The notes beneath the pieces were generated by a model. The model did not search any database. It had not been told where the DNA came from and worked only from the letters and a program-made list of their open reading frames with translations. A DNA stretch of 57,022 bases from a virus. This document shows, one piece after another, positions 4,333-53,093 of the stretch. Position 1 is the first letter of the stretch. Every line of letters starts with the position of its first letter. Position numbers and translations under genes: made by a program. The DNA lies in UHGV virus genome UHGV-1526745. One strand, written 5' to 3'.

Positions 4333-6123
4333 TTAAACAATTTCGCTTAATTGCGTATCAGTTAATGCTTTGTGCCATACTCGAACATTTCTGACATGAC
4401 CAAATAGATGACGTTCTCCAGTATTTGTTTTACCACCGATACAAATAGTTGCTGAGCTTTTGATATAAGTCCAGGTTGTTTTTGTTTCGCTGGATATACG
4501 TCCGTTACTTATTGCACATGTAAATTGATTTGCTTTTACACGCATCCCTATAACCATTTTTTCAAGAGAAGCGTTTTCATTAATGTGTGGGCTTGAGCCA
4601 CCAATATCACAATAAGGGAATCCGTCATGATCCGTTGCACGACCGAAGCCAAGAATAATAGCTGCTCCGGTTTGATTACCGCTGGTTTCAAAAACACGTG
4701 GCGCTGCATTTGGCGTTTTGCGCCAGTTCTTATGTACCTCACAAAGAACCGTAAAAGGAAGATTATAAAGGTTATTCTTGATTGGGGCTGTCACCATATC
4801 GCTTGCGCGCGTCGCCGCCGTCGTTTCTGATATAATAAAAGATGATGCGCAAGGGCCATTTTCAACCTGGGGGGTAGCCAGATAAATATAGTCACCAGAT
4901 TCAACGACGCCACCAGATTTTGGTGCGTATTGTATTGCAGAGGTTATGTAAGTTTCTTCACTTGCTTGAATCGTTGCCTCTACAAAAATCCAGCCCGCAG
5001 CTTCATCTTTGTTAACTCGTGCGGTAAGCCTGTCGGCAGCTACACCAGTGATTTCAACCAATAAAGACCGCGTATTAACAATGGCATATCCAAGATTAGA
5101 TGAAGCGCTGCCATCGAAGGCTTCAAACCTGATCCTTAACAGGAGTTCCAGATCCGTTTTAAATCTGCACGATGTCGTCACACACTTATTATCGCCTGAT
5201 ACATCGACAGCCCCCGAGGTTGAAACTACTGCCATATTAAGGGCTGTACTTTGCCCAATTAATGATTCATTACAAACAAACTTTCCATAAGTAAAACCAA
5301 AACTATCAGTTCCAACCTCAGCGATATTCATATTTGCAGATTTACCCCAAGAAGCTGGAGTTGCTGAATTCAACATGTAGTTTGTTCGCTGACCTTCAAT
5401 CAATAAACCTTCTTTTTCAAATCGTGGCTCATTAATTTCCGCCGTTTTCAGTTCGCCAGATTTGTTGATATATGTTGCCGTTGATGCGCGACTGAAATTA
5501 ACCTGTTTATCACTGGCAACCTGAACCACATTATCACCAATCTTCACTTTTTTATAACCCGGAGAATAGCCCGTAATCATATCCAGCGAATCATTAAAGG
5601 GCATCCACACATCCGGCAGAGGCTGTAAAACATACGCGTAAGGCTGCGCCGTCTGATTGGCGTATTCGTGGGCTTCGTCTCTGTATGTCTTAGCTGAATC
5701 TGCGGCGCTTGTCGCTGTTGTTGCAGCGTTGGTTGCAGTTGTAGCTGATTCTGATGCTAATTTTGAGGCTGAAATTACATCTTTGTTGTCGCTGAAAAAC
5801 TCCACAGCGTCCGCTATTTCTGATTCTTTGCCCTGATAGTAACGCAGTGTTTCTGCAACATCCTGAGCAAGACCATCCACAGAGATCGAATCTGAAAGCA
5901 GGATGCTAAATTTAGTCCCAGCCGGAATAGACGGACTTGCCGCCGGAGTTACCGACAAACTTGTTGCGCTTTTTACTTCTGTAATTGAGAAAATCTGCAC
6001 CGGATTGCTAATGGCAATAAGAGTGCAACCAACTCTGATCAGAGATAACGCGGCATTGAATTCAGTCCCTGTTCCGGTAACTGTGTTTCCGCTAACGGCT
6101 ATCGTGCCAGTTGTGTAAATCAT
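4333..6123 (-). CDS. tail fibre protein (receptor-binding, LamG/ConA-like C-terminus)
   Basis: 596-aa ORF after J-like gene; Gly/Thr/Ser-rich N-terminus, Ala/Thr-rich linker, lectin-like C-terminal region. Confidence 0.7.
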   Translation of the reverse strand: MIYTTGTIAVSGNTVTGTGTEFNAALSLIRVGCTLIAISNPVQIFSITEVKSATSLSVTPAASPSIPAGTKFSILLSDSISVDGLAQDVAETLRYYQGKESEIADAVEFFSDNKDVISASKLASESATTATNAATTATSAADSAKTYRDEAHEYANQTAQPYAYVLQPLPDVWMPFNDSLDMITGYSPGYKKVKIGDNVVQVASDKQVNFSRASTATYINKSGELKTAEINEPRFEKEGLLIEGQRTNYMLNSATPASWGKSANMNIAEVGTDSFGFTYGKFVCNESLIGQSTALNMAVVSTSGAVDVSGDNKCVTTSCRFKTDLELLLRIRFEAFDGSASSNLGYAIVNTRSLLVEITGVAADRLTARVNKDEAAGWIFVEATIQASEETYITSAIQYAPKSGGVVESGDYIYLATPQVENGPCASSFIISETTAATRASDMVTAPIKNNLYNLPFTVLCEVHKNWRKTPNAAPRVFETSGNQTGAAIILGFGRATDHDGFPYCDIGGSSPHINENASLEKMVIGMRVKANQFTCAISNGRISSETKTTWTYIKSSATICIGGKTNTGERHLFGHVRNVRVWHKALTDTQLSEIV

Positions 6124-6162
6124 CGCAATGACTCCATTATGTTAATTAACGGAATAATTCTA

Positions 6163-6183
6163 CCATTTTGTGATCTGTGTTGC
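6163..6183. promoter_or_regulatory. conserved motif TTTTGTGATCTGTGT upstream of tail fibre gene
   Basis: Shares TGTGATCTG(T/C)GT with sites at 12858..12873 and 17964..17979. Confidence 0.35.
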
Positions 6184-6304
6184 ATTTTATGCTTGCACAA
6201 AATGTATTTATTGATTTACGTCAATACAATAAATCATTTACAGTGAATGTAACTTGCCACAATTTATGATGTAAATTATTGGCGTAAAAATAAAAACAAT
6301 GCAT

Positions 6305-12892: not shown

Positions 12893-12921
12893 TTGATCGC
12901 GATTTTTACAATATGTATATT
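12893..12921 (+). promoter_or_regulatory. sigma70-like promoter for plus-strand moron cluster 1
   Basis: TTGATC-N17-TATATT upstream of ATG at 12938. Confidence 0.4.
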
Positions 12922-12937
12922 GTACTCAAAAGGAAGC

Positions 12938-13123
12938 ATGGTTAACAAAATGGCGCTGAGGTGTGAAATGGATGATAAGGTGTGGAGGTTGACGGTGTTC
13001 CTTGCTGATGGCAGGAAAATGACTGTGGCCCTGTATAAAGATGAAGGCGAGGCACTTACCGACGCGCTCTTACTCGCTGAAGATGAACGCGTTTTGGGGT
13101 ACAGGATCGAACCTGTCAAATGA
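12938..13123 (+). CDS. hypothetical moron protein (61 aa)
   Basis: ATG with AAAAGGAAG RBS inside track ORF 12893..13123; opposite strand to tail operon. Confidence 0.4.
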   Translation: MVNKMALRCEMDDKVWRLTVFLADGRKMTVALYKDEGEALTDALLLAEDERVLGYRIEPVK

Positions 13124-13135
13124 GAGGTTAACGAA

Positions 13136-13486
13136 ATGCAAAAATATAGTTTAGAAATATGGACTGATAAGTGTGAATGGGAGCGCATGGGCCTGTTTGA
13201 CACATACGCCGCAGCGCGTGATGAAGGTAGTGAGTTACTTCGCTGTTGGTCTGGCGCTCGTGATTTTGATATTACTCCGGTCCAAGTACCGGACCTGGTG
13301 GAAGAGATGAACCCGAAAGATATTAACTTTAACGTCAATGTTGAATTTGCAGACTCTATGGATCAGGCTTGCCCTGGTGAAATACACGCAAAAGGTTTTC
13401 CGGCTGACGATCCAGAAGCAAAACGAGAATACGAAAAAGCTGCGAAAGACTTCTGCATAGATAACCTGGCCGCATTCGATAAATAA
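13136..13486 (+). CDS. hypothetical moron protein (116 aa)
   Basis: Track ORF; tightly follows previous gene; no family recognised. Confidence 0.45.
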   Translation: MQKYSLEIWTDKCEWERMGLFDTYAAARDEGSELLRCWSGARDFDITPVQVPDLVEEMNPKDINFNVNVEFADSMDQACPGEIHAKGFPADDPEAKREYEKAAKDFCIDNLAAFDK

Positions 13487-13495
13487 GGCGGCAAC

Positions 13496-13744
13496 ATGGG
13501 GCGGCGCAATCACGGCGATTATGTGTACACGCTGAAACAGGCCGCCCGCCTCATCGGTTATCATGAGCACGAATTTATTGATTTGCTGATTGAGCGCGGG
13601 ATACTGTACCAGGTCTGTTTAACGCTGTACCCGAAAGCGAAATACCTACAGGAAAAGTTATTCATCATCATGACGGATGAAAACCAGGTTAATCATTCAT
13701 TCGTCACTGATAAGGGATTGACATATTTGAAGGGGGCGTTATGA
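13496..13744 (+). CDS. hypothetical moron protein (82 aa), possible HTH
   Basis: Track ORF; segment YTLKQAARLIGYHEHEFIDLLIERGIL looks helix-turn-helix-like. Confidence 0.45.
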   Translation: MGRRNHGDYVYTLKQAARLIGYHEHEFIDLLIERGILYQVCLTLYPKAKYLQEKLFIIMTDENQVNHSFVTDKGLTYLKGAL

Positions 13745-14390: not shown

Positions 14391-14423
14391 AAAACCCCCA
14401 TAAGTCACATTTTGTATATATCT

Positions 14424-14447
14424 TTACGCGCCTCTACGCGAAAAATG
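14424..14447. promoter_or_regulatory. conserved 24-bp element TTTACGCG-N4-CTACGCGAAAAAT (copy 1)
   Basis: Near-identical copy at 27213..27236; both immediately upstream of minus-strand genes (M, portal). Confidence 0.35.
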
Positions 14448-14558
14448 AGATCTTAATCACAATGATTATAGCTAGTTTACAAAATGGCTTCACATAGTGC
14501 GCAACAAGATGTATATAGAAAGCAAGAAGAAAAGCAGTACCAACGAAGGAGGCCAAAA

Positions 14559-14714
14559 ATGAAACGCTATGTAGTGGTAATGCTGAACAACGCATTCGAA
14601 CAAGTGGAAATAGCAATCGTTAAGGGCTTCGACGACGCATTCAAATACGGTCAATTCATGATGAATGCAAAAGAAGATGAATACCGTGATTTCTTCCTGA
14701 AGGCACTCAACTAA
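14559..14714 (+). CDS. hypothetical moron protein (51 aa)
   Basis: ATG after GGAGG RBS within track ORF 14484..14714. Confidence 0.35.
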   Translation: MKRYVVVMLNNAFEQVEIAIVKGFDDAFKYGQFMMNAKEDEYRDFFLKALN

Positions 14715-14731
14715 GGATGATGGGGTGAGTT

Positions 14732-14986
14732 ATGAAACTGGTAGCGATTGATAAAAACCTGAAAGTACAGAAAAACGCACAAGACAGGATTATCAAGAAA
14801 GGGAAGGAACTGCTTAAAGCATTTTTGAAGAAAGAGGCGCGCCCCAAAAAGTTACGTGATGGTTATGGCTTTAAATTCGACATCAACCCTGACTGGAGGC
14901 TGTTTAGCGAAGACCTAAAAGTCTGGTTAATTATCGATCATCTGGAATATAACAGGCACTGTGGAGTCAAAGGGGTGCATAAGTGA
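14732..14986 (+). CDS. hypothetical moron protein (84 aa, Lys-rich)
   Basis: Track ORF; no family recognised. Confidence 0.45.
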   Translation: MKLVAIDKNLKVQKNAQDRIIKKGKELLKAFLKKEARPKKLRDGYGFKFDINPDWRLFSEDLKVWLIIDHLEYNRHCGVKGVHK

Positions 14987-15095
14987 GGTGGGACATGGAG
15001 GACGATAAATTCACCTGGCGGGAGATCTGGAATATTTGGTTGGTGATGTTCGGCAGTGGTTACGTCGCACGTAACGGAAGATTATAGGAGGAAAA

Positions 15096-15281
15096 ATGAT
15101 TATTGACGAAACAGAGTTATGTTACGGAGTTAGGTTAGATCTTGATGAGGATGGTCGGCTATGGATAACCGAACTCATGGGGACTGACACCCTCGTAATT
15201 GACAAATCGCAGGCGACGCAACTTATCGCCGGGCTTCAAAAATTTATAGATGGCACATTTGAGAACGATCAGGAGGATTAA
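15096..15281 (+). CDS. hypothetical moron protein (61 aa, acidic)
   Basis: Track ORF with AGGAGG RBS. Confidence 0.4.
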   Translation: MIIDETELCYGVRLDLDEDGRLWITELMGTDTLVIDKSQATQLIAGLQKFIDGTFENDQED

Positions 15282-15283
15282 CA

Positions 15284-15571
15284 ATGGATTTAACCGTCAT
15301 TGGTCACGCACTGGCTGCGGCGGCTATGCAGGTTGTTATCGGCCTGCTTACTGGTGATTATCTCACTGGCGGCCTGATTGGATGTACATTCTTTTTTGCA
15401 CGCGAACACACGCAGGCTGAATATCGTTACATAGCGGAATTTTGCGGTGGAAAACGGGAAAGAATGCCGTGGTATGGCGGATTATTACCTAAAGCATGGA
15501 ATATGGCTAGCGTTTGCGACTTCGCCGCACCTGTATTCCTGTGCTGTTTGATTTATATTCTCACCATGTAA
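15284..15571 (+). CDS. hypothetical inner-membrane protein (95 aa)
   Basis: Track ORF; two or three hydrophobic segments. Confidence 0.5.
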   Translation: MDLTVIGHALAAAAMQVVIGLLTGDYLTGGLIGCTFFFAREHTQAEYRYIAEFCGGKRERMPWYGGLLPKAWNMASVCDFAAPVFLCCLIYILTM

Positions 15572-17986: not shown

Positions 17987-18027
17987 TATACAAAATGGCT
18001 TTACTTCAACGACTCCATTTTGTATAA
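17987..18027. promoter_or_regulatory. perfect 12-bp inverted repeat TATACAAAATGG-N17-CCATTTTGTATA
   Basis: Read directly; sits between TMP start and plus-strand lipoprotein gene. Confidence 0.45.
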
Positions 18028-18073: not shown

Positions 18074-18733
18074 ATGAAACGGTTAGCAAAAGTGGCAATG
18101 ATTGCGGCGGTATTGGGTCTGGTTGGTTGCAATGAGGATAATGAAAAAGCGCCTATAGTGACCAATCAAGAACAACAAGCATTAGCAGAGAAAAATGCTA
18201 AATGGCTTGCAGAACAACAAGCAAAACAAGCCGCATACGATGCACAGTTAGAAAAAGAAAATGCTGGTAAACAGTGGCTTGTAGTTGAAAGAAAAGATGA
18301 TATGCAGGACGCAAAAAACGTATTCCTTTTTGTGAAAGCAGAACAATTCAGCGGAAGTCTTGATGCTTTCCCGACACTGAAGGCACAGGATAAGAATAAA
18401 CCGGTATTAACAATCGCTTGCCAGGGTAATAAAACAAAAATGTTCGTAGCATGGTCACACCATGTAACTGACGCCGGGGACACTACTTATATTAACTACC
18501 GGATCGGCGTTCACAAAGCTGTAGCTACTGAGTGGGGGCGGTCAACTAATTATAAAGCTCTTGGATTATGGGATGGCAAAAAAGCCATCCCAATGATTAA
18601 AAAAATGGTTAACGAAAAACAATTCATCATTGAAGTAGTGCCGGAAGCTGGCGACATTGAGAAAGCAGTGTTTAACATTGATGGTCTTTATAACCACATC
18701 GACAAAGTGAAAAACGCTTGCAACTGGAATTAA
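18074..18733 (+). CDS. lipoprotein (219 aa) moron
   Basis: Signal peptide with LVGC lipobox; GGTGGG RBS. Confidence 0.6.
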   Translation: MKRLAKVAMIAAVLGLVGCNEDNEKAPIVTNQEQQALAEKNAKWLAEQQAKQAAYDAQLEKENAGKQWLVVERKDDMQDAKNVFLFVKAEQFSGSLDAFPTLKAQDKNKPVLTIACQGNKTKMFVAWSHHVTDAGDTTYINYRIGVHKAVATEWGRSTNYKALGLWDGKKAIPMIKKMVNEKQFIIEVVPEAGDIEKAVFNIDGLYNHIDKVKNACNWN

Positions 18734-18743
18734 GGGGTAAATC

Positions 18744-19118
18744 ATGAAAAACATAATCAAAGCGGCTCTCATTGGTGTTATGGCTTTAGCTCTTACAGGG
18801 TGCGCAAGATCAACTGATTTCGTTAAGTTAGCTGATAAAAAATTGCAAGTTGGAATGACTTGTGAGCAAGTGAATAAAATAATGGGGGAACCACAAAGAA
18901 TCGAGCATGACGGTAATTATAGTTATCACGTATGGTATTCAGTAACCAGCACGATAGGATTTACTTACATGGATGTTGAAGAATTATCCCCTTCAAGGGT
19001 TATCGCAAAGTTTGATAACTGCATCCTAAAAGAATGGAAAGATCGCAGTAAGGCAAAGTCTGTATACAATACAATCACACACAGTTCACCAGGTACAGCA
19101 ATTAAAGATTTCAATTAG
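18744..19118 (+). CDS. lipoprotein (124 aa), BamE/SmpA-OmlA-like
   Basis: Signal peptide with LTGC lipobox; QVGMTCEQVNKIMGEP resembles SmpA/OmlA motif. Confidence 0.55.
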   Translation: MKNIIKAALIGVMALALTGCARSTDFVKLADKKLQVGMTCEQVNKIMGEPQRIEHDGNYSYHVWYSVTSTIGFTYMDVEELSPSRVIAKFDNCILKEWKDRSKAKSVYNTITHSSPGTAIKDFN

Positions 19119-38873: not shown

Positions 38874-39033
38874 AATGCTCTCTCCTTTTTCAGGTGATTT
38901 TTACGCATTTCAGCGTTACCGGATTTTTAAAGAGCATTTTGTTTGTTTGAAGTATACAAAACGGATACATGCGAACAAACAATAAAGCGCCATTATGTGA
39001 TCCGCATCACACAATGACGCCATTTTGTAAACA

Positions 39034-40436: not shown

Positions 40437-40769
40437 TTAACGGTATATCAAAACAGCCCGTTTCTTTCTTTGGGCTTCCTCCCGCTCCGTTAATATTTGC
40501 TCCGCTTTTAGCGCGTTATAGCTAATCAAATCAATTAGCGTGTCTGTCGGATCTGATTTATTGCTTAAAATGGCCTCTAAACGCGCCTCCTTGAGACAAA
40601 TTAGCAGATCCCATACATCAAGCGGGGTTAAATCTGCTCCCTTCTTAGCGTTGTAAATAGTGGCTATTTTTGGCGCTGATTTTTCCTCTTTTTTGTCGTA
40701 GCCGTTTTGTTTACCTCTTTGCTCTATGGTTTCCGCTGCAAGTCTCAATAAATCTGCTGCCTTAGTCAT
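40437..40769 (-). CDS. hypothetical protein
   Basis: Track ORF 40437..40787; internal ATG chosen. Confidence 0.4.
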   Translation of the reverse strand: MTKAADLLRLAAETIEQRGKQNGYDKKEEKSAPKIATIYNAKKGADLTPLDVWDLLICLKEARLEAILSNKSDPTDTLIDLISYNALKAEQILTEREEAQRKKRAVLIYR

Positions 40770-42492: not shown

Positions 42493-42591
42493 TTTTGCTT
42501 CCTCCGCACCGTAAACCTTTTGATTTCGGCTTACAAAACGGATATACAATCACAATACAAAATGTATATTTATGTGATCGGAATTACTCGG

Positions 42592-45852: not shown

Positions 45853-45998
45853 TTAATCTCCCGTGCTGTTAACACTATGTATAAGGCTTTATTCGCGGCG
45901 CTCCACATTTCGGCATCGTGAAGCATTTCCGCTACTGCCAGTTTGAATTGAAGCGCCTGAATAACCATAATGTCATCTCCGGATGTTTACATTTTGTA

Positions 45999-46289
45999 TT
46001 AATGGTAGCGGACTTTATCCAGGGGTTTTTCCCCTAAATGGCGTGGTTGCGTTGCGTGGTAGTAGCTGCCGCTTTCATTTTCCGTATACCATTTTACTGA
46101 TCCTTTGCGACGTTCTTTAATGCTATTTGGTTTGCATCTTTCCTCGTTTGCAAATCGAATAGCTTTATCCACATTGTCTGTTTTATTGATTGCAGGTGAT
46201 GATTTTCTTTCGTTTTCTCTTTTTATCCTTCTGCGTTCCCTGGCATTCATTTTGCTATCACATTTACCATATATAATTGTAACGCTCAT
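45999..46289 (-). CDS. putative N-like antitermination protein (arginine-rich motif)
   Basis: First gene of leftward operon; MNARERRRIKRENERK resembles lambdoid N ARM; start may be internal (46250). Confidence 0.35.
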   Translation of the reverse strand: MSVTIIYGKCDSKMNARERRRIKRENERKSSPAINKTDNVDKAIRFANEERCKPNSIKERRKGSVKWYTENESGSYYHATQPRHLGEKPLDKVRYH

Positions 46290-46750
46290 AATCTGATCTC
46301 CGTATATCCTTGATGATACTTAATAAAAAATCATCTTCGTTAATTGCCGCACTTCCAGCGGCTGACCAGATTGTTAATGAGCGGCTTAACATCTTTCAAC
46401 TAATCCCGCAATCATCGCCGTTCCCGGCGTGACCTTGCTCACTCCAAGCAAGCTGACTCGTCGCCTTGCGTGCGGTTTCGTGGGGGATGTAACGCTTTAA
46501 ACACCCCATGCGCCTTGTTATCAGTGCCGCTTTCGGTCCCCCATCGGGGAGTTACTCCACGGTTGACAAGGTGTTAAGCCTGATTTTTAAAGTGCCAGGA
46601 AGTTGCTTTTGTTACCTGCGCCCTTCCTTTGACTCGCAATATACGCCCCGTAAAACATCGAGTCAATCCATTTTGTATACTTTTTTAAAATATTTTATAT
46701 GCCATTGATATTTAAATAATAAATAACGTTTTCTGTTTACGTTTTGGTGT

Positions 46751-46784
46751 TTTCCAGGCAAAGAAAAGCCGCCATTCGGCGGCT
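46751..46784 (-). terminator. rho-independent terminator after repressor gene
   Basis: Hairpin AGCCGCC-ATTC-GGCGGCT 6 nt after repressor stop, followed on minus strand by TTTCTTT. Confidence 0.5.
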
Positions 46785-46789
46785 AATGT

Positions 46790-47437
46790 TTATGGCAGGT
46801 TTACGATCTTCGCATCAACCACCACGCCTATAATTTTTGATTCTGGATTCATAGGGATTGGCGGATACAGCGGATTGAGCGAACGTAAAAGCCTTTGACC
46901 TCCATCAATAATCAACTGTTTAAACGTCGGTATCTGCCCTTCCTCAAGCTGGGCTATAACCAGTTTGCCGTCAATAGCTGGCGCGTGCGGGTCCACAAGT
47001 ATCATCGTCCCCGCCGGGATGCTCAACCCCTGCGGCGCGTTCATTGATTCACCTTTGGCAACCAGCCAGTAACTGTCATCTGAACAAATAACGCTAGTCG
47101 TAACGTGTCGTAATGCTGAACGCCTTGCGTCATCCATATTGTTTACTGTGTCCTTCCAGTCAATAACCGGGTAACTACCTAAATCACGCGGCGGCACGGC
47201 CTGAAGTGTATTAGAAACAGAATCATCAATGACCATGCCATCATGTGTAACAGTAAACTGCCGACGACCAAGCTCGCGCATAATCCGCGCAATATCTTCA
47301 AGATTTGGCTCTCGGCGACCGTTCAGCCAGTGTGACAGGCCGCCTTTAGTTATCCCCATACGATCCGCGAGCGAATCCTGGCTCATGCCCTGCGCCCGCA
47401 TGAGCTGCTTTGCTAAGTCATACCATTTTGTTTTCAT
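46790..47437 (-). CDS. CI-like repressor (HTH_XRE + S24 LexA-like peptidase)
   Basis: N-terminal HTH (QDSLADRMGITKGGLSHWLNGRREP), C-terminal KGESM / ILVDP autocleavage-type region. Confidence 0.85.
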   Translation of the reverse strand: MKTKWYDLAKQLMRAQGMSQDSLADRMGITKGGLSHWLNGRREPNLEDIARIMRELGRRQFTVTHDGMVIDDSVSNTLQAVPPRDLGSYPVIDWKDTVNNMDDARRSALRHVTTSVICSDDSYWLVAKGESMNAPQGLSIPAGTMILVDPHAPAIDGKLVIAQLEEGQIPTFKQLIIDGGQRLLRSLNPLYPPIPMNPESKIIGVVVDAKIVNLP

Positions 47438-47439
47438 GT

Positions 47440-47742
47440 CGCTACCCTATAACCTCAAAAAGTTTGATGCAAGTCACAAAACGTGTATTTTAAGCCTTGA
47501 TCTTAAAATTCCATTTTGTAAACTTGCAGACAAGGTAAGGCCATACTTGCAAAGACGCAAGGAAAAAGATAACGGAAGGCACAAAAAGGCACTTACCTTA
47601 TGCTCTTTAAAAATCCGGTGTCGCTGCGAAGCGAAAAACAAATATCACGCAACGGCGGGATCTGTTGAGCGGTCAGTCACTGCTATCTAATGCTAATGGG
47701 ATGCCCGCCCGCGCGTTCACTCTAACCATAGGAGAAAATGCG
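47440..47742. promoter_or_regulatory. right operator/promoter region
   Basis: Divergent intergenic region; inverted repeats CTTGCAGACAAG and CTTGCAAAGACGCAAG (47523..47562) plus CCATTTTGTA motif. Confidence 0.4.
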
Positions 47743-49056: not shown

Positions 49057-49444
49057 CCAACCACGATTCGCAAAAATCCAAAATTACCCACAAAACAACC
49101 TCACCAGCGAGCTAAAACACGCATGGTGCTACGATTGCATATCTTTAGCTATTTAGCTCGTTATAGAGCGTTTTAGAGAGGATTTTAAAATGGACGGTAA
49201 ACACGTTTTCGCCCTGGCCTTTGCCATCGCTGCTGCAATCGCTGTTAACGTCGCTTTGTTCGGCGGTTTGTTCCTTCTTATCAATCCATAACCTTCATAC
49301 CAGCCTGTAAATCAAAAATTAGCCACCTGAGAGCGCCTCTGACGCAATAAGACACTGCAACCTGTGCAAACGGGTTACGCGGTGGGATTTTTGCGTTGTA
49401 GCACGTCTGAGGCGTTATATATAAAATTAAGAAAAGAGGTACAT

Positions 49445-50500
49445 ATGATTGCCACTTATCATGTGAAACTAAATTGTAAGGACACGCAATTACTATCTGT
49501 TAATAATCTTGTTTCTGAACTTGAAATCGATAGGCTTAAATCATTTGTTAAATACTCTGATCTTTACGGATTTGAGGAATACAAGGATTTTATTATTGAT
49601 GGTGATGATGTGTATATCACACCTATAACGTTTATTAGATTCGTTACACCTGGTAAATATAGACATTATGAATATAATGAAAATTGGGTTAAGCCAGTTA
49701 TTGAATCTTGTGGATTAGTTGATTTACAAGATGTGTTTAATAAATATTCAAATAATACCAGAAAAGATAGTCCTTATGCTTATAATTATGTTTTATGGTG
49801 TAACAACTATGTTGAAACTAGTGATACTCCCGGGCGATGCTCTGTGTATGTGTCAAAGGAAGATGCTGAAAAGTATAAAAAATGGTTGTTCGTTACTCGC
49901 GGAGTATCAATAGAAAAACTATGGGTAAGGTTGTTTCATTCAAGCGATATTGCAGATCCAGATACGTTTTTAAATGAACATCTTAATAATGATGAGTTTA
50001 CCATTGATTTAAATATTGAATATTTTACAGTTAAAACAAATTATGGATATGAAAGATATATTAGCGATAAGATAGCGGAAAAGTATCATACATGGGGTCA
50101 AAATAAAGGTCTTAGTAATAATTTTGAATGCGGTAATTATAACGACATAGAAAACTTTATTGAATTAAAAAGCGACAAGAATGTAATTGAGGAAATAAAA
50201 AGGGAATGTGACGAGAAATTATCAGAAATGAGTTATAATTGTAAAAATATGATTAGGAAGCGTTATGAACATGCTGGATTAACTATGTACGAAAAACTAA
50301 AAGGAGTTAAATTAATAAGGCAATATCCTGTTAATGTTGCTGGCAACAAGTATTTTATTGATGGCTACGATCTTGTGAATAATATTGCTGTAGAAATTGA
50401 TGAATCACATCACAAACGGCAAGCAAAAAGCGATGCGATAAGACAAAAACGCATTGAGGATTATTTGGGGTGCAAGTTTTTTCGTTGTGCTATATCCTGA
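49445..50500 (+). CDS. AT-rich moron protein with C-terminal DUF559/Vsr-like nuclease-type domain
   Basis: ATG after AAGAGG RBS; C-terminus YFIDGYDLVNNIAVEIDESHH...DAIRQKRIEDYLGCKFFRC fits DUF559-type pattern; strongly AT-rich versus neighbours. Confidence 0.55.
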   Translation: MIATYHVKLNCKDTQLLSVNNLVSELEIDRLKSFVKYSDLYGFEEYKDFIIDGDDVYITPITFIRFVTPGKYRHYEYNENWVKPVIESCGLVDLQDVFNKYSNNTRKDSPYAYNYVLWCNNYVETSDTPGRCSVYVSKEDAEKYKKWLFVTRGVSIEKLWVRLFHSSDIADPDTFLNEHLNNDEFTIDLNIEYFTVKTNYGYERYISDKIAEKYHTWGQNKGLSNNFECGNYNDIENFIELKSDKNVIEEIKRECDEKLSEMSYNCKNMIRKRYEHAGLTMYEKLKGVKLIRQYPVNVAGNKYFIDGYDLVNNIAVEIDESHHKRQAKSDAIRQKRIEDYLGCKFFRCAIS

Positions 50501-50534
50501 TGTATACAAAATGTAAACCTGAGGAATTAACATT

Positions 50535-51653
50535 ATGTCGCAAAGAAAAATCAGCGATGAGCAATTGATCGCTGAATATAACAACGGTTTAACGTACAAG
50601 CAGATTGCTGAAAAATATGGCATGTCAAAACGCAATGTCGAGCGCCTGGGCGCAAAACTGGCGAAACGTGGTTTATTATCAACACGCCGCGCTCCTGGTT
50701 TTGGCGTCAATGGCGAGTCGTTGCTAGTCGATAAGAACGGCAATGTTATCATGCGCTGGATTAAAACAGCCCGTGACCGCGAAGAAATGGAACAGCTAAT
50801 GGAAGCGGCCCGCGACGCTTTCACTGATGAAATACCACGCGCGGAGGCTGTGCCAGTGCCTGAAATTGATTTTCAAAAAAGCCTGGCACTTTATCCGGTG
50901 TTTGATCTGCATATCGGGGCGCTTGCTCATAAAGCTGAATGCGGTGAGAGCTACGATACTGGGATCGCTGAGCGCGTGTTGAATGACTTCTTTGACTACG
51001 CTGTTGGCGCTGCTCCGATGTCTGAAAAAGCTGTTTTACTTCTCGGCGGTGATGTGCTTCACACTGACGGCCTGTTACCAGTGACGCCATCAAGTAATCA
51101 CGTTTTAGATTGTGATTCACGCTACGCAAAACTGGTTTATGTGGCGATCCGGTCGGTCCGGCGTGCGGTCGGGAAGATGTTACTAAATCATAAGGATGTC
51201 GAGATCCAGGTATTATCCGGTAATCACGACCAATCAGGTATGATCTGGCTACGTGCTGCGCTTGCGGCTTTTTACGAAGATGAGCCGCGCGTGACTGTTG
51301 ACGTGTCACCTGCCATTGTCCACCACACACAGTATGGCAAAACATTCCTTGCTTACCACCACGGGCACACTATCAAAAAGCCGGAAAATTTATTGTCTGC
51401 TTGCGTAGCTGACTGGCGGGAGGATTTCGGAAGGTCTGTGGCTGTTTACGCTCACACTGGACATCTGCACCATCAATCAGTTGTTGAAACATCACTTGGA
51501 ATAGTTGAGCACCACGGCACATTAGCTGGCAAAGACGCATATTCAACTAATGGCGGCTGGCGGTCGCGGCGTCTGGCAGCGGTGATTATTTACAGCCCGG
51601 ATCATGGGGAAATTGGGCGCTTTGTTTATTACCCTGAATATTCCATTTTGTAA
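50535..51653 (+). CDS. HTH domain fused to calcineurin-like metallophosphoesterase
   Basis: N-terminal LTYKQIAEKYGMSKRNVERL HTH; DLH, GGDVLHTDG, SGNHD and TGHLHH motifs. Confidence 0.6.
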   Translation: MSQRKISDEQLIAEYNNGLTYKQIAEKYGMSKRNVERLGAKLAKRGLLSTRRAPGFGVNGESLLVDKNGNVIMRWIKTARDREEMEQLMEAARDAFTDEIPRAEAVPVPEIDFQKSLALYPVFDLHIGALAHKAECGESYDTGIAERVLNDFFDYAVGAAPMSEKAVLLLGGDVLHTDGLLPVTPSSNHVLDCDSRYAKLVYVAIRSVRRAVGKMLLNHKDVEIQVLSGNHDQSGMIWLRAALAAFYEDEPRVTVDVSPAIVHHTQYGKTFLAYHHGHTIKKPENLLSACVADWREDFGRSVAVYAHTGHLHHQSVVETSLGIVEHHGTLAGKDAYSTNGGWRSRRLAAVIIYSPDHGEIGRFVYYPEYSIL

Positions 51654-51671
51654 ACCGGAGGCAATAACATA

Positions 51672-53093
51672 ATGGTAACTGAGCAAATAAACTCACTACG
51701 GCAGGAACGTGAAGCGTCAGTTATCGGCGGGCTACTGTTAGGTGGCCTTACTCCTAACGCGCAAGATGTTCTCGCCACACTTGATCCTGAAGTGTTCACG
51801 ATCCCGCTTTATAAACGTGCGTTTGAAGTTATCCGGGCGCAAGCCAGAAACAGAAATCTTATCGACGCGTTATTGGTTGGCGATGAGATTGGCAATGAAA
51901 ACTTTGTACCGCTAATGCAAACGGCACGATCGTGCCCTTCTGCTGCCAACCTGAAAGGATATGCGCAACTACTACAGGAAGAACACCAGCGTCGGCAAAT
52001 GCTGGAACTAATGGAAGACATTCGCTACAAGCTGGAAACAGGGACGCTTGAAGTCGTCAGGGAGACGATGAAAGATTTTGATTCCCGGTATTCAAAATTA
52101 AAGGTAACAAAAGATCAAATTATCCCGGTGCTGTTGCGCGATGCGGTCCAGGAATACACGGAAGTGTTAAGTAAACGCATGGAGTGTGGCGTGAACTCTG
52201 ACAACATCAAAACAGGGATTGACCCACTCGACGAAATGTTAGGCGGCATTAACGCTACTGATCTGGTGCTTATCGCCGGACGCCCAGGGTCTGGTAAATC
52301 GGCGTTGGCGTTGGCAATTGCCCGCGCGGCGGCTGAACGCCCATACCCTGGAGGCGAAGGTCAGCGGGTCGGCGTTTTGCTGTTCACGCTTGAAATGTCG
52401 CTCGATCAGATGACTGAACGCGCTATCGCTGGCGCAGGGAACTTGTCAACGGATTGCTTACGTAATCCGGTAAAACTGGATGACGAAGGATGGGCGCACG
52501 TTGCCCAGGGAATGAGCGCACTTGCTGATCTCGATGTGTGGATTGTTGATGCATCACAGTTAACTGTCGAGGAAATACGCGCCACAACTGAACGAATGAA
52601 GCAGGATTATCCCAACCTGGGTATGGTAATGATTGACTACATCGGGTTAATGAAGCTGGCTAAGGCAGAACGTCACGATCTCGCTGTAGGGCAATTGTCG
52701 TGGTCATTGAAAATGATGGCGAAAGAATTGCGCGTACCAGTGGCGGCGCTGGCGCAATTATCCCGCCGCGTCGAGGAACGACCGAACAAGCGACCGAACA
52801 ATTCTGATCTGCGCGATTCCGGCAATCTTGAACAGGACGCAGACCGGATCATCATGGTATACCGCGACGGCTACTACAACGAACAATCTGTTGCACGCGA
52901 ATACATGGAGATTATCGTTTCAAAAAACCGTCACGGAAAAACCGGGACTGTTTACCAGCGTTTTGACGACAACGGCAACATATTACCGTGTGACCAGGCC
53001 CGCGCGGCGTCAGCTTGCATCCAGTCAATGCAACAACGTCCGGCGGTAAGCCGATTCTCGCCACGAAACAACCAGAATAAAGCATCTTTTTAA
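51672..53093 (+). CDS. dnaB: replicative DNA helicase (DnaB family)
   Basis: 473 aa; Walker A GRPGSGKS; DnaB-type N- and C-terminal domains. Confidence 0.9.
   Translation: MVTEQINSLRQEREASVIGGLLLGGLTPNAQDVLATLDPEVFTIPLYKRAFEVIRAQARNRNLIDALLVGDEIGNENFVPLMQTARSCPSAANLKGYAQLLQEEHQRRQMLELMEDIRYKLETGTLEVVRETMKDFDSRYSKLKVTKDQIIPVLLRDAVQEYTEVLSKRMECGVNSDNIKTGIDPLDEMLGGINATDLVLIAGRPGSGKSALALAIARAAAERPYPGGEGQRVGVLLFTLEMSLDQMTERAIAGAGNLSTDCLRNPVKLDDEGWAHVAQGMSALADLDVWIVDASQLTVEEIRATTERMKQDYPNLGMVMIDYIGLMKLAKAERHDLAVGQLSWSLKMMAKELRVPVAALAQLSRRVEERPNKRPNNSDLRDSGNLEQDADRIIMVYRDGYYNEQSVAREYMEIIVSKNRHGKTGTVYQRFDDNGNILPCDQARAASACIQSMQQRPAVSRFSPRNNQNKASF

What the first reader, a model, noticed from the sequence alone, without database searches (positions are those of the whole stretch)
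46664..47523. CCATTTTGTA / TACAAAATGG motif enriched in intergenic and operator regions
The 10-mer or its complement occurs at about 14406, 14477, 17988, 18016, 39019, 46668 (left operator region), 47511 (right operator region) and 50495, far more often than expected for a window this size. Several copies are paired in inverted orientation. It may be a binding site for a phage regulator or host nucleoid protein, or part of a family of promoters.
Basis: seen in the sequence. Interest (0 to 1): 0.4.

Follow-up and report, generated by a model that had tools for sequence, protein, structure and literature searches.

The report
Scattered operator sites of phage repressor
The repeated CCATTTTGTA word is most likely the DNA site bound by this temperate phage's lambda-CI-like repressor, and unusually about 20 copies are spread over the whole genome rather than confined to the two classical operator regions.

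Summary
CCATTTTGTA occurs 7 times exactly (0.22 expected) and is the most over-represented word in the window. This holds within intergenic DNA alone, so AT content does not explain it.

The window is a relative of E. coli phage mEp021 (the mEpimmI family), and the word is conserved at orthologous positions across the family.

In its correct register it is a 13-bp near-palindrome, ATACA-TTT-TGTAT. Most copies pair one consensus half with an nnCCA half.

The key evidence is comparative. The window's repressor is a true lambda CI homologue. Seven unrelated classical prophages or phages have repressors with the same or nearly the same recognition helix. All carry this sequence as three sites between cI and cro and two or three sites before N, and almost nowhere else. 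A P22-C2-type control does not.

In the window, sites are centred at -16 and -41 of both early promoters, the same geometry as in those relatives. About 16 further strong sites form pairs or triplets 24-37 bp apart at secondary promoters, a nut site, replication genes and tail-region cargo junctions.

No binding experiment exists, and repression at the dispersed sites is inferred.

Verdict: a predicted, previously undescribed operator set for a known kind of repressor, with P1- or L5-like dispersal.

The parts
47509..47521 (+). Operator (O_R1-like) TTCCATTTTGTAA over the spacer and -10 of the rightward early promoter TTGATC(47497-47502)-N16-TAAACT(47519-47524). nutL boxA TGCTCTTTAAAAA follows at about 47601.
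   Evidence: 24.5 bits; centre at -16. Same geometry in the sister phage and in L331 O_L1.
47474..47486 (-). Weaker operator (O_R2-like), ACACGTTTTGTGA on the minus strand, 35 bp from O_R1 and upstream of the repressor gene. It is the counterpart of ATACATTTTGTGT in the lambdoid relatives.
   Evidence: 27-nt imperfect palindrome; O_R site spacing of 33 bp in the relatives. The sister phage has CCATTTTGTGACTTG at the same place.
47421..47433 (+). Box-like site TACCATTTTGTTT inside codons 2-6 (MKTKW) of the repressor gene. It could be an autoregulatory site or a by-product of the coding sequence.
   Evidence: 14.6 bits. Its function is not tested.
46666..46678 (+). Operator (O_L2-like) ATCCATTTTGTAT. 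On the minus strand it reads ATACAAAATGGAT and its last T is the first base of the -35 TTGACT of the leftward early promoter, putting the site centre at -41.
   Evidence: (24.0 bits). It is 100% conserved in 31 distinct family sequences. The sister phage and L331 O_L2 share the geometry.
46641..46653 (-). Probable second operator (O_L1-like) TTACGGGGCGTAT at -22..-10 of the leftward early promoter TTGACT(46666..46661)-N17-TATATT(46643..46638), 25 bp from the previous site.
   Evidence: Read. Its halves TTACG and CGTAT both occur in operators of the relatives. The T-rich-centre matrix missed it, so it is weaker evidence.
45987..45999 (+). Single site TTACATTTTGTAT (one mismatch to the symmetric consensus) just downstream of the N-like gene 45999..46289(-). 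No recognisable promoter overlaps it, so it is a candidate roadblock.
   Evidence: (20.0 bits). It occurs in 42 family instances and at the same position in the sister phage.
42531..42567 (-). Operator pair 24 bp apart: ATACATTTTGTAT (42555-42567, a perfect match to the consensus) and ATCCGTTTTGTAA (42531-42543). In mEp021 the pair brackets TTGTGA-N16-TAAACT.
38954..39030 (.). Triplet of sites at 38954-38966, 38988-39000 and 39018-39030, with centres 34 and 30 bp apart, around a 16-bp terminator-like hairpin. The first site is centred at -16 of TTGTTC-N16-TATACT, 13 nt upstream of the nutR2 boxA.
50504..50516 (-). Single site (ATACAAAATGTAA on the plus strand) about 20 nt upstream of gene 50535..51653. 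It lies at a common mosaic breakpoint.
   Evidence: 23.6 bits.
51641..51653 (+). Single site TTCCATTTTGTAA 21 nt upstream of the helicase gene 51672..53093. That is too close to the start codon to be that gene's promoter.
   Evidence: 21.8 bits. In the sister phage the site at this position is inverted.
17988..18025 (.). Operator pair 25 bp apart (ATACAAAATGGCT ... CTCCATTTTGTAT) between the tape-measure gene (minus strand) and a plus-strand cargo block. Each site is at about -16 of one divergent promoter and about -41 of the other.
   Evidence: (a conservation peak).
14405..14489 (.). Two sites 72 bp apart (14405-14417 and 14477-14489) between the minor-tail gene (minus strand) and the ParE-like toxin block (plus strand). 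A perfectly conserved TATAAT lies 7 nt after the second site.
12906..12955 (-). Pair 37 bp apart. TTACAATATGTAT (12906-12918) is centred at -16 of the plus-strand promoter TTGATC-N17-TATATT (12893-12921). That promoter leads into the block ending in a KilAC antirepressor fragment.
   Evidence: (18.0 and 16.1 bits).
6132..6207 (.). Triplet at 6132-6144, 6161-6173 and 6195-6207, with centres 29 and 34 bp apart, between the J-like gene and gene 4333..6123. In mEp021 this junction holds the Lpp exclusion gene.
46790..47437 (-). Gene for the CI-like repressor (215 aa; HTH_3 plus S24 domains), the inferred binding partner.
   Evidence: (lambda CI, PDB 3bdn, E = 1.4e-20). Rep021 function is shown in PMC11893012.

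Best explanation
The word is the core of the operator recognised by the phage's lambda-CI-type repressor (the Rep021 family, gene 46790..47437), and presumably by its Cro-like partner. The full site is a 13-bp near-palindrome, ATACA-TTT-TGTAT. In this phage most copies keep one consensus half (TGTAT or TGTAA) and the A/T centre, but have nnCCA as the other half. That is why a tool-less reader saw an asymmetric 10-mer.

Repressor dimers would bind each site, and sites 24-37 bp apart would be filled cooperatively. Sites centred at -16 cover the spacer and -10 and block RNA polymerase. Partner sites centred at -41 abut the -35. This arrangement occurs at both early promoters, which feed nutL and nutR1.

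Unlike classical lambdoid phages, the same sites also cover secondary promoters elsewhere: before nutR2 and the Q region, at 42.5 kb, before an antirepressor-containing block, and at every junction between tail genes and opposite-strand cargo. Single sites with no recognisable promoter lie inside operons, after the N-like gene and before two replication genes. One repressor would therefore silence a dispersed set of transcription units in the prophage.

Shown here: the enrichment, conservation, site-to-promoter geometry, pairing, and identity with the operators of homologous repressors. Inferred: actual binding, cooperativity, and repression or roadblocking at the dispersed copies.
For: 1. The repressor is a true lambda CI homologue, including the C-terminal dimerisation and cooperativity domain.

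2. Homologues with an identical or nearly identical N-terminal arm and recognition helix (ITKG[GA][LV]SHWLN[GA]RREP) occur in unrelated classical prophages of Enterobacter, Serratia and Tatumella, in a metagenomic contig, and in Erwinia phage Midgardsormr38; a Citrobacter prophage and Salmonella phage ST64T carry more diverged variants of this helix (ITQGGLGHWLNGRREP, KTQGAIGHWLNGRREP).

3. In all of them the cI-cro intergenic region holds three ATACA-NNN-TGTAT sites with starts 33 and 25-26 bp apart. The region before N holds two or three more, with the last two 25 bp apart.

4. A matrix trained only on this window's family places 28 of its 30 hits of at least 9 bits inside those O_R/O_L windows of about 200 bp. 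In a P22-C2-type control it places 0 of 3 there.

5. The Citrobacter O_R even contains TTCCATTTTGTAT, read on the complementary strand.

6. The site is by far the best sequence shared by the window's left and right early-promoter regions.

7. The -41/-16 geometry is the same as in L331 O_L.

8. The diverged sister phage has a repressor only 55% identical overall but with an identical DNA-reading head. It keeps the sites although the promoter hexamers have changed.

9. Sites are local conservation peaks in variable intergenic DNA, are family-specific and are non-randomly paired.

10. Whole-genome controls: ST64T has only 2 sites of at least 14 bits, both in O_L. Midgardsormr38 has 4 sites of at least 10 bits, all in O_L or O_R. 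The window has 20 sites of at least 14 bits, 16 of them outside the immunity region, and mEp021 also has 20.
Against: No binding data exist for any member of this family, and the only paper on the family defines no operators.

Most window sites are hemi-consensus. Fifteen of 20 have C at position 3 of one half, whereas that position is A in 55 of 58 half-sites in the relatives. With a free centre the symmetric pattern alone is only weakly enriched: 45 against 33.5 expected at up to 2 mismatches. Affinity of individual copies is therefore uncertain.

If the sites repress, the ParE-like, VasI-like and lipoprotein cargo would be silent in the lysogen, which is unexpected for such genes.

Some matrix hits are probably not operators. 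Examples are 22113, where ACAAAATGG is a ribosome-site spacer plus start codon, and the coding hits at 40702 and 47134.

The rightward promoter's site is polymorphic in the family (CCATTCTGTA in mEp021) and degenerate in the sister phage.
Confidence: 0.78

Rival explanations
1. The word is a shared core-promoter element, a special -10 region or a duplicated promoter cassette, read by RNA polymerase or by a phage-encoded activator or sigma-like factor, and is not a repressor site.
For: Most copies point toward a downstream gene 20-150 nt away. The 3' end, TA(A/T)A, often starts a -10-like hexamer such as TAAACT, TATACT or TATAAG. T1-like phages that share the replication module have clear repeated promoter-like cassettes of their own.
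Against: Across 36 independent flank clusters there is no information at any fixed -35 distance, and only 31% have TAnnnT at the putative -10 position. The register relative to the best-conserved -10 boxes varies: -16, -25 and -41. Copies lie 21 nt from start codons. Orientation flips between the window and the sister phage at the same locus. The same sequence forms the canonical operators of homologous repressors in unrelated phages.
Confidence: 0.1
2. Only the copies in the immunity region are functional operators. The dispersed copies are relics of operator-promoter cassettes that were moved with mosaic modules, and they have little or no regulatory role.
For: Several copies lie exactly at homology breakpoints, at 6174, 12954, 50503 and 51638. 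Many are hemi-consensus. Some have no recognisable promoter.
Against: Breakpoints are not enriched at sites overall: 4 of 116 against 2.1 expected. Dispersed sites are conservation peaks within variable flanks across 20-30 distinct family sequences. They are retained at equivalent positions in mEp021 and in the diverged sister phage. They keep operator-like pair spacing of 24-37 bp. One dispersed site, at 42555, is the only perfect consensus copy in the window.
Confidence: 0.1
3. The word is a binding site for a host nucleoid or global regulator (IHF, Fis, CRP, OmpR-like), or a short linker for module exchange by recombination.
For: The core is A/T-rich and intergenic. Some neighbouring sequences resemble CRP half-sites, for example TGTGA-N6-TCACA at 38995-39010. 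A few copies lie at mosaic junctions.
Against: There are zero copies in 830 kb of tail regions of other phages with related tail genes, and background frequency in 732 kb of T1-like coliphage DNA. Multi-copy contigs in the viral collection all belong to this family. By my recollection of the IHF and Fis consensus sequences there is no match; no tool was run for this. There is no overall enrichment at breakpoints.
Confidence: 0.02

Closest known systems
Lambda/P22/434-type O_R and O_L operators for CI/Cro repressors
   Same: The repressor is a sequence homologue of lambda CI. The sites are short dyads in tandem arrays that overlap divergent early promoters next to the repressor gene. The pair spacing is compatible with cooperative binding. 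The sequence is the same as in the O_R/O_L of homologous repressors in ST64T, Midgardsormr38 and five prophages.
   Different: The site is 13 bp (ATACA-N3-TGTAT), not 17 bp as in lambda (from general knowledge of lambda). Most copies here are hemi-consensus. About 16 strong copies lie outside the immunity region, whereas the two complete classical genomes tested have none or one. The repressor gene is co-oriented with the N-like gene. The family is reported as not UV-inducible (PMC11893012).
Phage P1 C1 repressor operators
   Same: One immunity repressor controls many operators dispersed over the genome. P1 has 22 operators according to PMC8546580. From general knowledge of P1, these operators control scattered operons, including an antirepressor operon, and some occur as paired (bivalent) sites.
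   Different: P1 operators are 17-bp asymmetric sites (ATTGCTCTAATAAATTT) according to PMC8546580. From general knowledge, C1 is unrelated to lambda CI. Here the site is a dyad and the repressor is of the HTH_3-S24 CI type.
Mycobacteriophage L5 / Cluster A repressor operators and stoperators
   Same: More than 20 13-bp sites lie throughout the genome, both at promoters and in short intergenic spaces inside operons, where they are proposed to stop elongation (PMC9283540; PMC6550527). The window's sites at 45987, 50504 and 51641 look like this second class.
   Different: The L5-type repressor binds as a monomer to an asymmetric site, and orientation relative to transcription is critical. Here the site is near-palindromic, orientation is mixed (about 11 co-directional to 5 opposite) and flips between relatives, and the repressor belongs to a dimeric family.

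Membership tests
CI/Cro-type operator (site of an HTH_3-S24 phage repressor) | A CI-type repressor gene is present, with sites flanking it over divergent early promoters. | tested here: met
   The repressor at 46790..47437 matches lambda CI (E = 1.4e-20). Sites lie at 47509-47521 and 47474-47486 on one side and at 46666-46678 and 46641-46653 on the other.
CI/Cro-type operator (site of an HTH_3-S24 phage repressor) | Two-fold (dyad) symmetry of the site. | tested here: inconclusive
   The consensus ATACA-TTT-TGTAT is a near-palindrome, and 42555-42567 matches it perfectly. However, 15 of 20 strong window sites have a non-consensus nnCCA half.
CI/Cro-type operator (site of an HTH_3-S24 phage repressor) | Repressors with the same recognition helix use the same sequence at canonical O_R/O_L, and a different helix goes with a different sequence. 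| tested here: met
   Seven independent phages or prophages carry the sequence at O_R/O_L. The P22-C2-type control L335 has unrelated operators and no hits in O_R/O_L.
CI/Cro-type operator (site of an HTH_3-S24 phage repressor) | Direct, specific binding by the repressor, with loss of immunity when sites are mutated. | not testable with these tools
   This needs EMSA, footprinting, ChIP or genetics. The literature has none.
L5-type stoperators | An asymmetric site bound by a monomeric two-domain repressor, acting only in one orientation. | tested here: not met
   The repressor is of the CI type, the site is near-palindromic, and orientation is mixed and flips between relatives.
L5-type stoperators | Many sites dispersed in short intergenic spaces genome-wide. 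| tested here: met
   There are 20 sites of at least 14 bits against 1.05 expected, with 16 outside the immunity region.
Sigma-70 core promoter element (-10, extended -10 or -35) | A fixed register relative to a partner hexamer and the start site in all copies. | tested here: not met
   There is no information at -35 distance, only 31% have TAnnnT at offset +7, and site centres fall at -16, -25 and -41.
Mobile promoter cassettes or recombination linkers (PeSL-like) | Copies coincide with the boundaries of exchanged modules. | tested here: not met
   Four of 116 breakpoint loci lie within 20 bp of a site, against 2.1 expected. Only individual cases coincide.
Host nucleoid-protein or global-regulator site | The site also occurs in other phages of the same host and matches a known consensus. 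| tested here: not met
   Zero copies in 830 kb and background level in 732 kb of other phage DNA. No consensus match by my recollection of the known consensus sequences; no tool was run for this.

The most novel reading that the evidence does not exclude
A lambda-CI-type dimeric repressor runs a genome-wide regulon of 8 or more operator clusters plus intra-operon roadblock sites in a Nus/N/Q-dependent coliphage. The paired and triplet clusters could be bridged by CI-type higher-order oligomers into multiple loops, and the systematic consensus/CC half-site asymmetry could tune affinity or discriminate the repressor from the Cro-like protein. That would be a hybrid of lambda-style cooperativity with P1- or L5-style dispersed control. 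It could also explain how a repressor reported as not UV-inducible keeps scattered promoters, including one leading to an antirepressor, silent.
Probability: 0.35. Interest if true: 0.65.

Novelty: new variant of a known kind. Interest (0 to 1): 0.55.

Why it matters
The mEpimmI phages are reported to be as common in human faeces as lambdoid phages. Their repressor has been shown to confer immunity, but its DNA targets have never been defined (PMC11893012).

This analysis predicts the operator sequence, the positions of both early promoters and their operators, and an unexpectedly large set of additional targets.

If confirmed, it gives a ready map for dissecting the lysis-lysogeny switch of a new phage family. 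It would also show that lambda-type repressors can be deployed in the dispersed manner so far associated with the unrelated repressors of P1 and mycobacteriophage L5.

It also assigns an operator consensus (ATACA-N3-TGTAT) to a widespread CI subfamily that includes those of ST64T (annotated as similar to phage L c2) and Midgardsormr38.

Tried and rejected
1. Fixed -10, extended -10 or -35 element: rejected by the logo and offset analysis.

2. Alternative sigma-factor consensus sequences (sigma-S, sigma-32, sigma-54, sigma-28), and IHF, Fis, DnaA, Tus and TyrR consensus sequences, were compared from memory only. None fits. These comparisons are leads, not tests.

3. Recombination linker: the breakpoint test was negative.

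4. RNA-level element or mini-ORF (the complement contains ATG): the downstream reading frames are inconsistent (read). A few hits are genuine start-codon contexts (22113; sister phage 5258 and 16089) and were set aside.

5. I first judged the word asymmetric and therefore unlikely to bind a CI dimer. That was wrong, because the T-run hides the dyad centre. The register became clear only from the relatives' operators.

6. 'Heteroimmune relatives' found through the replication protein turned out to be virulent T1-like phages, so they could not test co-variation with the repressor.

7. A scan of species-representative genomes for the repressor found nothing.

8. The mEp021 antitermination paper (PubMed 36795170) is not held.

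9. A viral-collection scan with a 16-mer gave mostly single chance hits outside the family.

10. A literature search for the site sequences returned only unrelated primer matches.
Full report
OBSERVATION

CCATTTTGTA or its complement occurs exactly 7 times: 14478-, 17989-, 18015+, 39020+, 46668+, 47511+ and 51643+. The expectation is 0.22, and 0 of 100 shuffles reach 7. With up to one mismatch there are 22 copies against 6.25 expected.

The word is the most over-represented 8-, 9- and 10-mer in the window. Fourteen of the 21 CATTTTGT cores lie in the roughly 11% of the window that is non-coding.

The enrichment is not an AT-content effect. Inside intergenic DNA alone, scored against intergenic composition, CATTTTGT occurs 11 times against 0.5 expected and remains the top word. 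With shuffling inside 500-bp blocks, a weight matrix gives 20 sites of at least 14 bits against 1.05 expected.

WHAT THE WINDOW IS

The window is a mosaic relative, 85-90% identical, of E. coli temperate phage mEp021 and the mEpimmI family. That family has a CI-like repressor (Rep021) shown to confer immunity, an N-like antiterminator (Gp17) with three nut sites, and a Q-like protein. No operators have been defined for it (PMC11893012).

In the window:
- The repressor gene is 46790..47437(-).
- The N-like gene is 45999..46289(-).
- Replication genes run rightward from 47665.
- Structural genes are on the minus strand, interrupted by plus-strand cargo blocks.

The sites are conserved at orthologous positions in mEp021. 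Across 43 + 30 + about 40 family loci from the viral collection they occur at 1.3-2.1 exact copies per 10 kb. They are local conservation peaks within more variable intergenic DNA.

The word is absent from 830 kb of tail regions of other phages with a related tail protein. It is at background level in 732 kb of T1-like phages that share a replication protein.

WRONG TURNS

Anchored on the core, the logo looked like an asymmetric element of about 14 bp, W-K-M-CATTTTGTA-W-A, with no -35 at a fixed distance. Only 31% of copies had TAnnnT at the would-be -10. So it is not a core promoter element.

Mosaic breakpoints coincide with a few copies but are not enriched overall: 4 of 116 against 2.1 expected. 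So it is not a recombination linker.

I also concluded too early that the site lacks dyad symmetry.

THE DECISIVE COMPARISON

The repressor is a genuine lambda CI homologue, including the C-terminal domain (3bdn, E = 1.4e-20). A database search found homologues at 39-55% identity whose N-terminal arm and helix-turn-helix are almost unchanged: MKTKW...GITKGGLSHWLNGRREP here, and ITKGAVSHWLNARREP in others.

One homologue (P0008) lies in a diverged sister phage with the same gene order. That phage again carries the sites:
- An inverted copy abuts the -35 of the leftward early promoter, although the promoter hexamers differ.
- A copy lies before the repressor gene.
- A tandem pair lies before an antirepressor gene.
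- Copies lie after the N-like gene and before the helicase gene. The helicase copy is in the opposite orientation to the window's.

The others lie in classical lambdoid prophages of Enterobacter, Serratia and Tatumella, in a metagenomic contig, and, with a slightly different helix, in Citrobacter. In every one:
- The cI-cro intergenic region contains three sites such as ATACATTTCGTAT, ATACATTTTGTGT and ATACGGATTGTAT, with starts 33 and 25-26 bp apart.
- The region upstream of N contains two or three sites such as ATACATTTTGTAT and ATACGTTTTGTAT, with the last two 25 bp apart.

The symmetrised half-site is A-T-A-C-(A/G), and the commonest centre is TTT.

A matrix trained only on the window's family puts 28 of its 30 hits of at least 9 bits inside these O_R/O_L windows of about 200 bp. 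In a prophage with a P22-C2-type helix it puts 0 of 3 there, and that prophage's operators are unrelated.

Two complete named phages with this repressor type confirm the pattern genome-wide:
- ST64T has 5 hits of at least 10 bits, 4 of them in O_L/O_R, and only 2 of at least 14 bits, both in O_L.
- Erwinia phage Midgardsormr38 has 4 hits of at least 10 bits, all in O_L/O_R.

The window's word is therefore the operator of this repressor subfamily, read in the register ATACA-TTT-TGTAT. The earlier logo fits this register: position -3 is W, -2 is T and -1 is A or C.

ANATOMY IN THE WINDOW

Rightward early promoter. TTGATC(47497)-N16-TAAACT(47519) is covered by TTCCATTTTGTAA (47509-47521, centre -16) and is followed by the nutL boxA at about 47601. 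A weaker site (47474-47486) lies 35 bp away on the repressor side. It corresponds to the relatives' middle O_R site.

Leftward early promoter. TTGACT(46666..46661)-N17-TATATT(46643..46638) has ATACAAAATGGAT ending on the first base of the -35 (centre -41). It probably also has TTACGGGGCGTAT at -22..-10. These are the same two positions that O_L2 and O_L1 occupy in L331. nutR1 and the N-like gene follow.

Sites outside the immunity region:
- A triplet at 38954-39030 surrounds a terminator-like hairpin. Its first site is centred at -16 of TTGTTC-N16-TATACT, 13 nt before the nutR2 boxA.
- A pair at 42531-42567 includes the only perfect consensus copy in the window.
- Pairs or triplets lie at 6132-6207, 12906-12955, 14405-14489 and 17988-18025, that is, at every junction between tail genes and opposite-strand blocks.
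- Singles lie at 45987, 50504 and 51641 inside operons, with no recognisable promoter.

The 12906 site is centred at -16 of a good plus-strand promoter (TTGATC-N17-TATATT) that leads to a block ending in a KilAC antirepressor fragment.

Seven neighbouring pairs lie 22-40 bp apart against about 0.5 expected, and 0 of 2000 randomisations reach 7. This matches the operator spacing in the relatives.

MECHANISM

Shown here: the enrichment, conservation, geometry, pairing, and identity with the operators of homologous repressors.

Inferred, by analogy with lambda CI from established knowledge:
- Dimers bind each 13-mer.
- Adjacent sites are filled cooperatively.
- Sites at -16 occlude RNA polymerase.
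- Dispersed clusters silence secondary promoters in the prophage.
- Promoter-less single sites may act as roadblocks.

The Cro-like product of the first rightward gene probably shares the sites. This was not tested.

CAVEATS

- Fifteen of 20 strong sites have C instead of A at position 3 of one half. The symmetric CC/GG version never occurs. A link to GGL versus GAV in helix 3 is only suggestive.
- Repression of ParE-like, VasI-like and lipoprotein cargo in lysogens would be unusual.
- A few matrix hits are start-codon contexts or coding coincidences.

COMPARISON WITH KNOWN SYSTEMS

In the kind of site and protein, this belongs with lambda/P22/434-type operators.

In deployment it resembles P1, with 22 dispersed C1 operators (PMC8546580), and mycobacteriophage L5, with more than 20 operator and stoperator sites (PMC9283540). 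Those repressors are unrelated, and their sites are asymmetric.

No paper in the searchable library mentions the site sequences in a phage context.

VERDICT

It is the predicted operator set of the family's CI-like repressor, which makes it a new variant of a known kind. It is of moderate interest because of the genome-wide dispersal and because it supplies testable targets for a recently described, common gut coliphage family.

Noticed in passing
L165-L206, e.g. L184 at 5766, 12829, 14997, 15734, 17022 and L177 at 9412, 14721, 15572: Virulent T1-like phages share the 372-aa replication-module protein of window 50535..51653. They carry their own repeated cassette: a conserved box of about 19 bp (aATAGCACTTTTTGTTAAAA in one group, AAATAGCACGAATTGCTAAA in another), then a GC-rich hairpin of variable sequence, then (C/T)ATAAT. 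There are 6-9 copies per 21 kb. The box-to-ATAAT distance of about 22 nt is too long for a standard sigma-70 spacer.
   Followed up: partly
window 38986-39021: A 16-bp hairpin lies in the position of the predicted terminator t4. Its central part is a perfect CRP-like TGTGA-N6-TCACA, and GATCACA-type words recur near several operator sites.
   Followed up: no
window 46628-46665: The 8-bp inverted repeat TTGACTCG ... CGAGTCAA, 22 bp apart, brackets the whole leftward early promoter. It may be a site for another regulator or an RNA or DNA structure.
   Followed up: no
window 50510-50537, 51647-51674 and 45960-45995 (minus strand): A translation-initiation cassette, TGTAAACCnGAGGnAAtnAACATnATG, is repeated before two replication genes and after the N-like gene, each time fused to an operator-like site.
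   Followed up: partly
window 13136-13744, 14484-15571 and 18074-19118 (plus strand): Opposite-strand cargo blocks inside the tail gene cluster encode a KilAC antirepressor fragment, a ParE-like toxin with a small upstream partner, a VasI-like protein and a BamE-like lipoprotein.
   Followed up: partly
window 49364-50500: A variable 378-aa gene with a DUF559 domain is bounded by the two most frequent homology breakpoints in the family, 49406 and 50503. mEp021 carries different genes and an HNH endonuclease gene here.
   Followed up: no
window 47421-47437: The repressor's N-terminal arm codons MKTKW (ATGAAAACAAAATGG) themselves form an operator-like site. The published mEp021 annotation starts the repressor 17 codons further in, which would omit the lambda-like arm that all homologues conserve.
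   Followed up: partly
L337 (Erwinia phage Midgardsormr38) 10441-12777: This classical relative keeps its antirepressor genes under Arc-like repressors inside the tail region, as annotated in the record (P22 immI-style, from general knowledge). In the window the antirepressor-containing block instead has a CI-type operator over its promoter.
   Followed up: no
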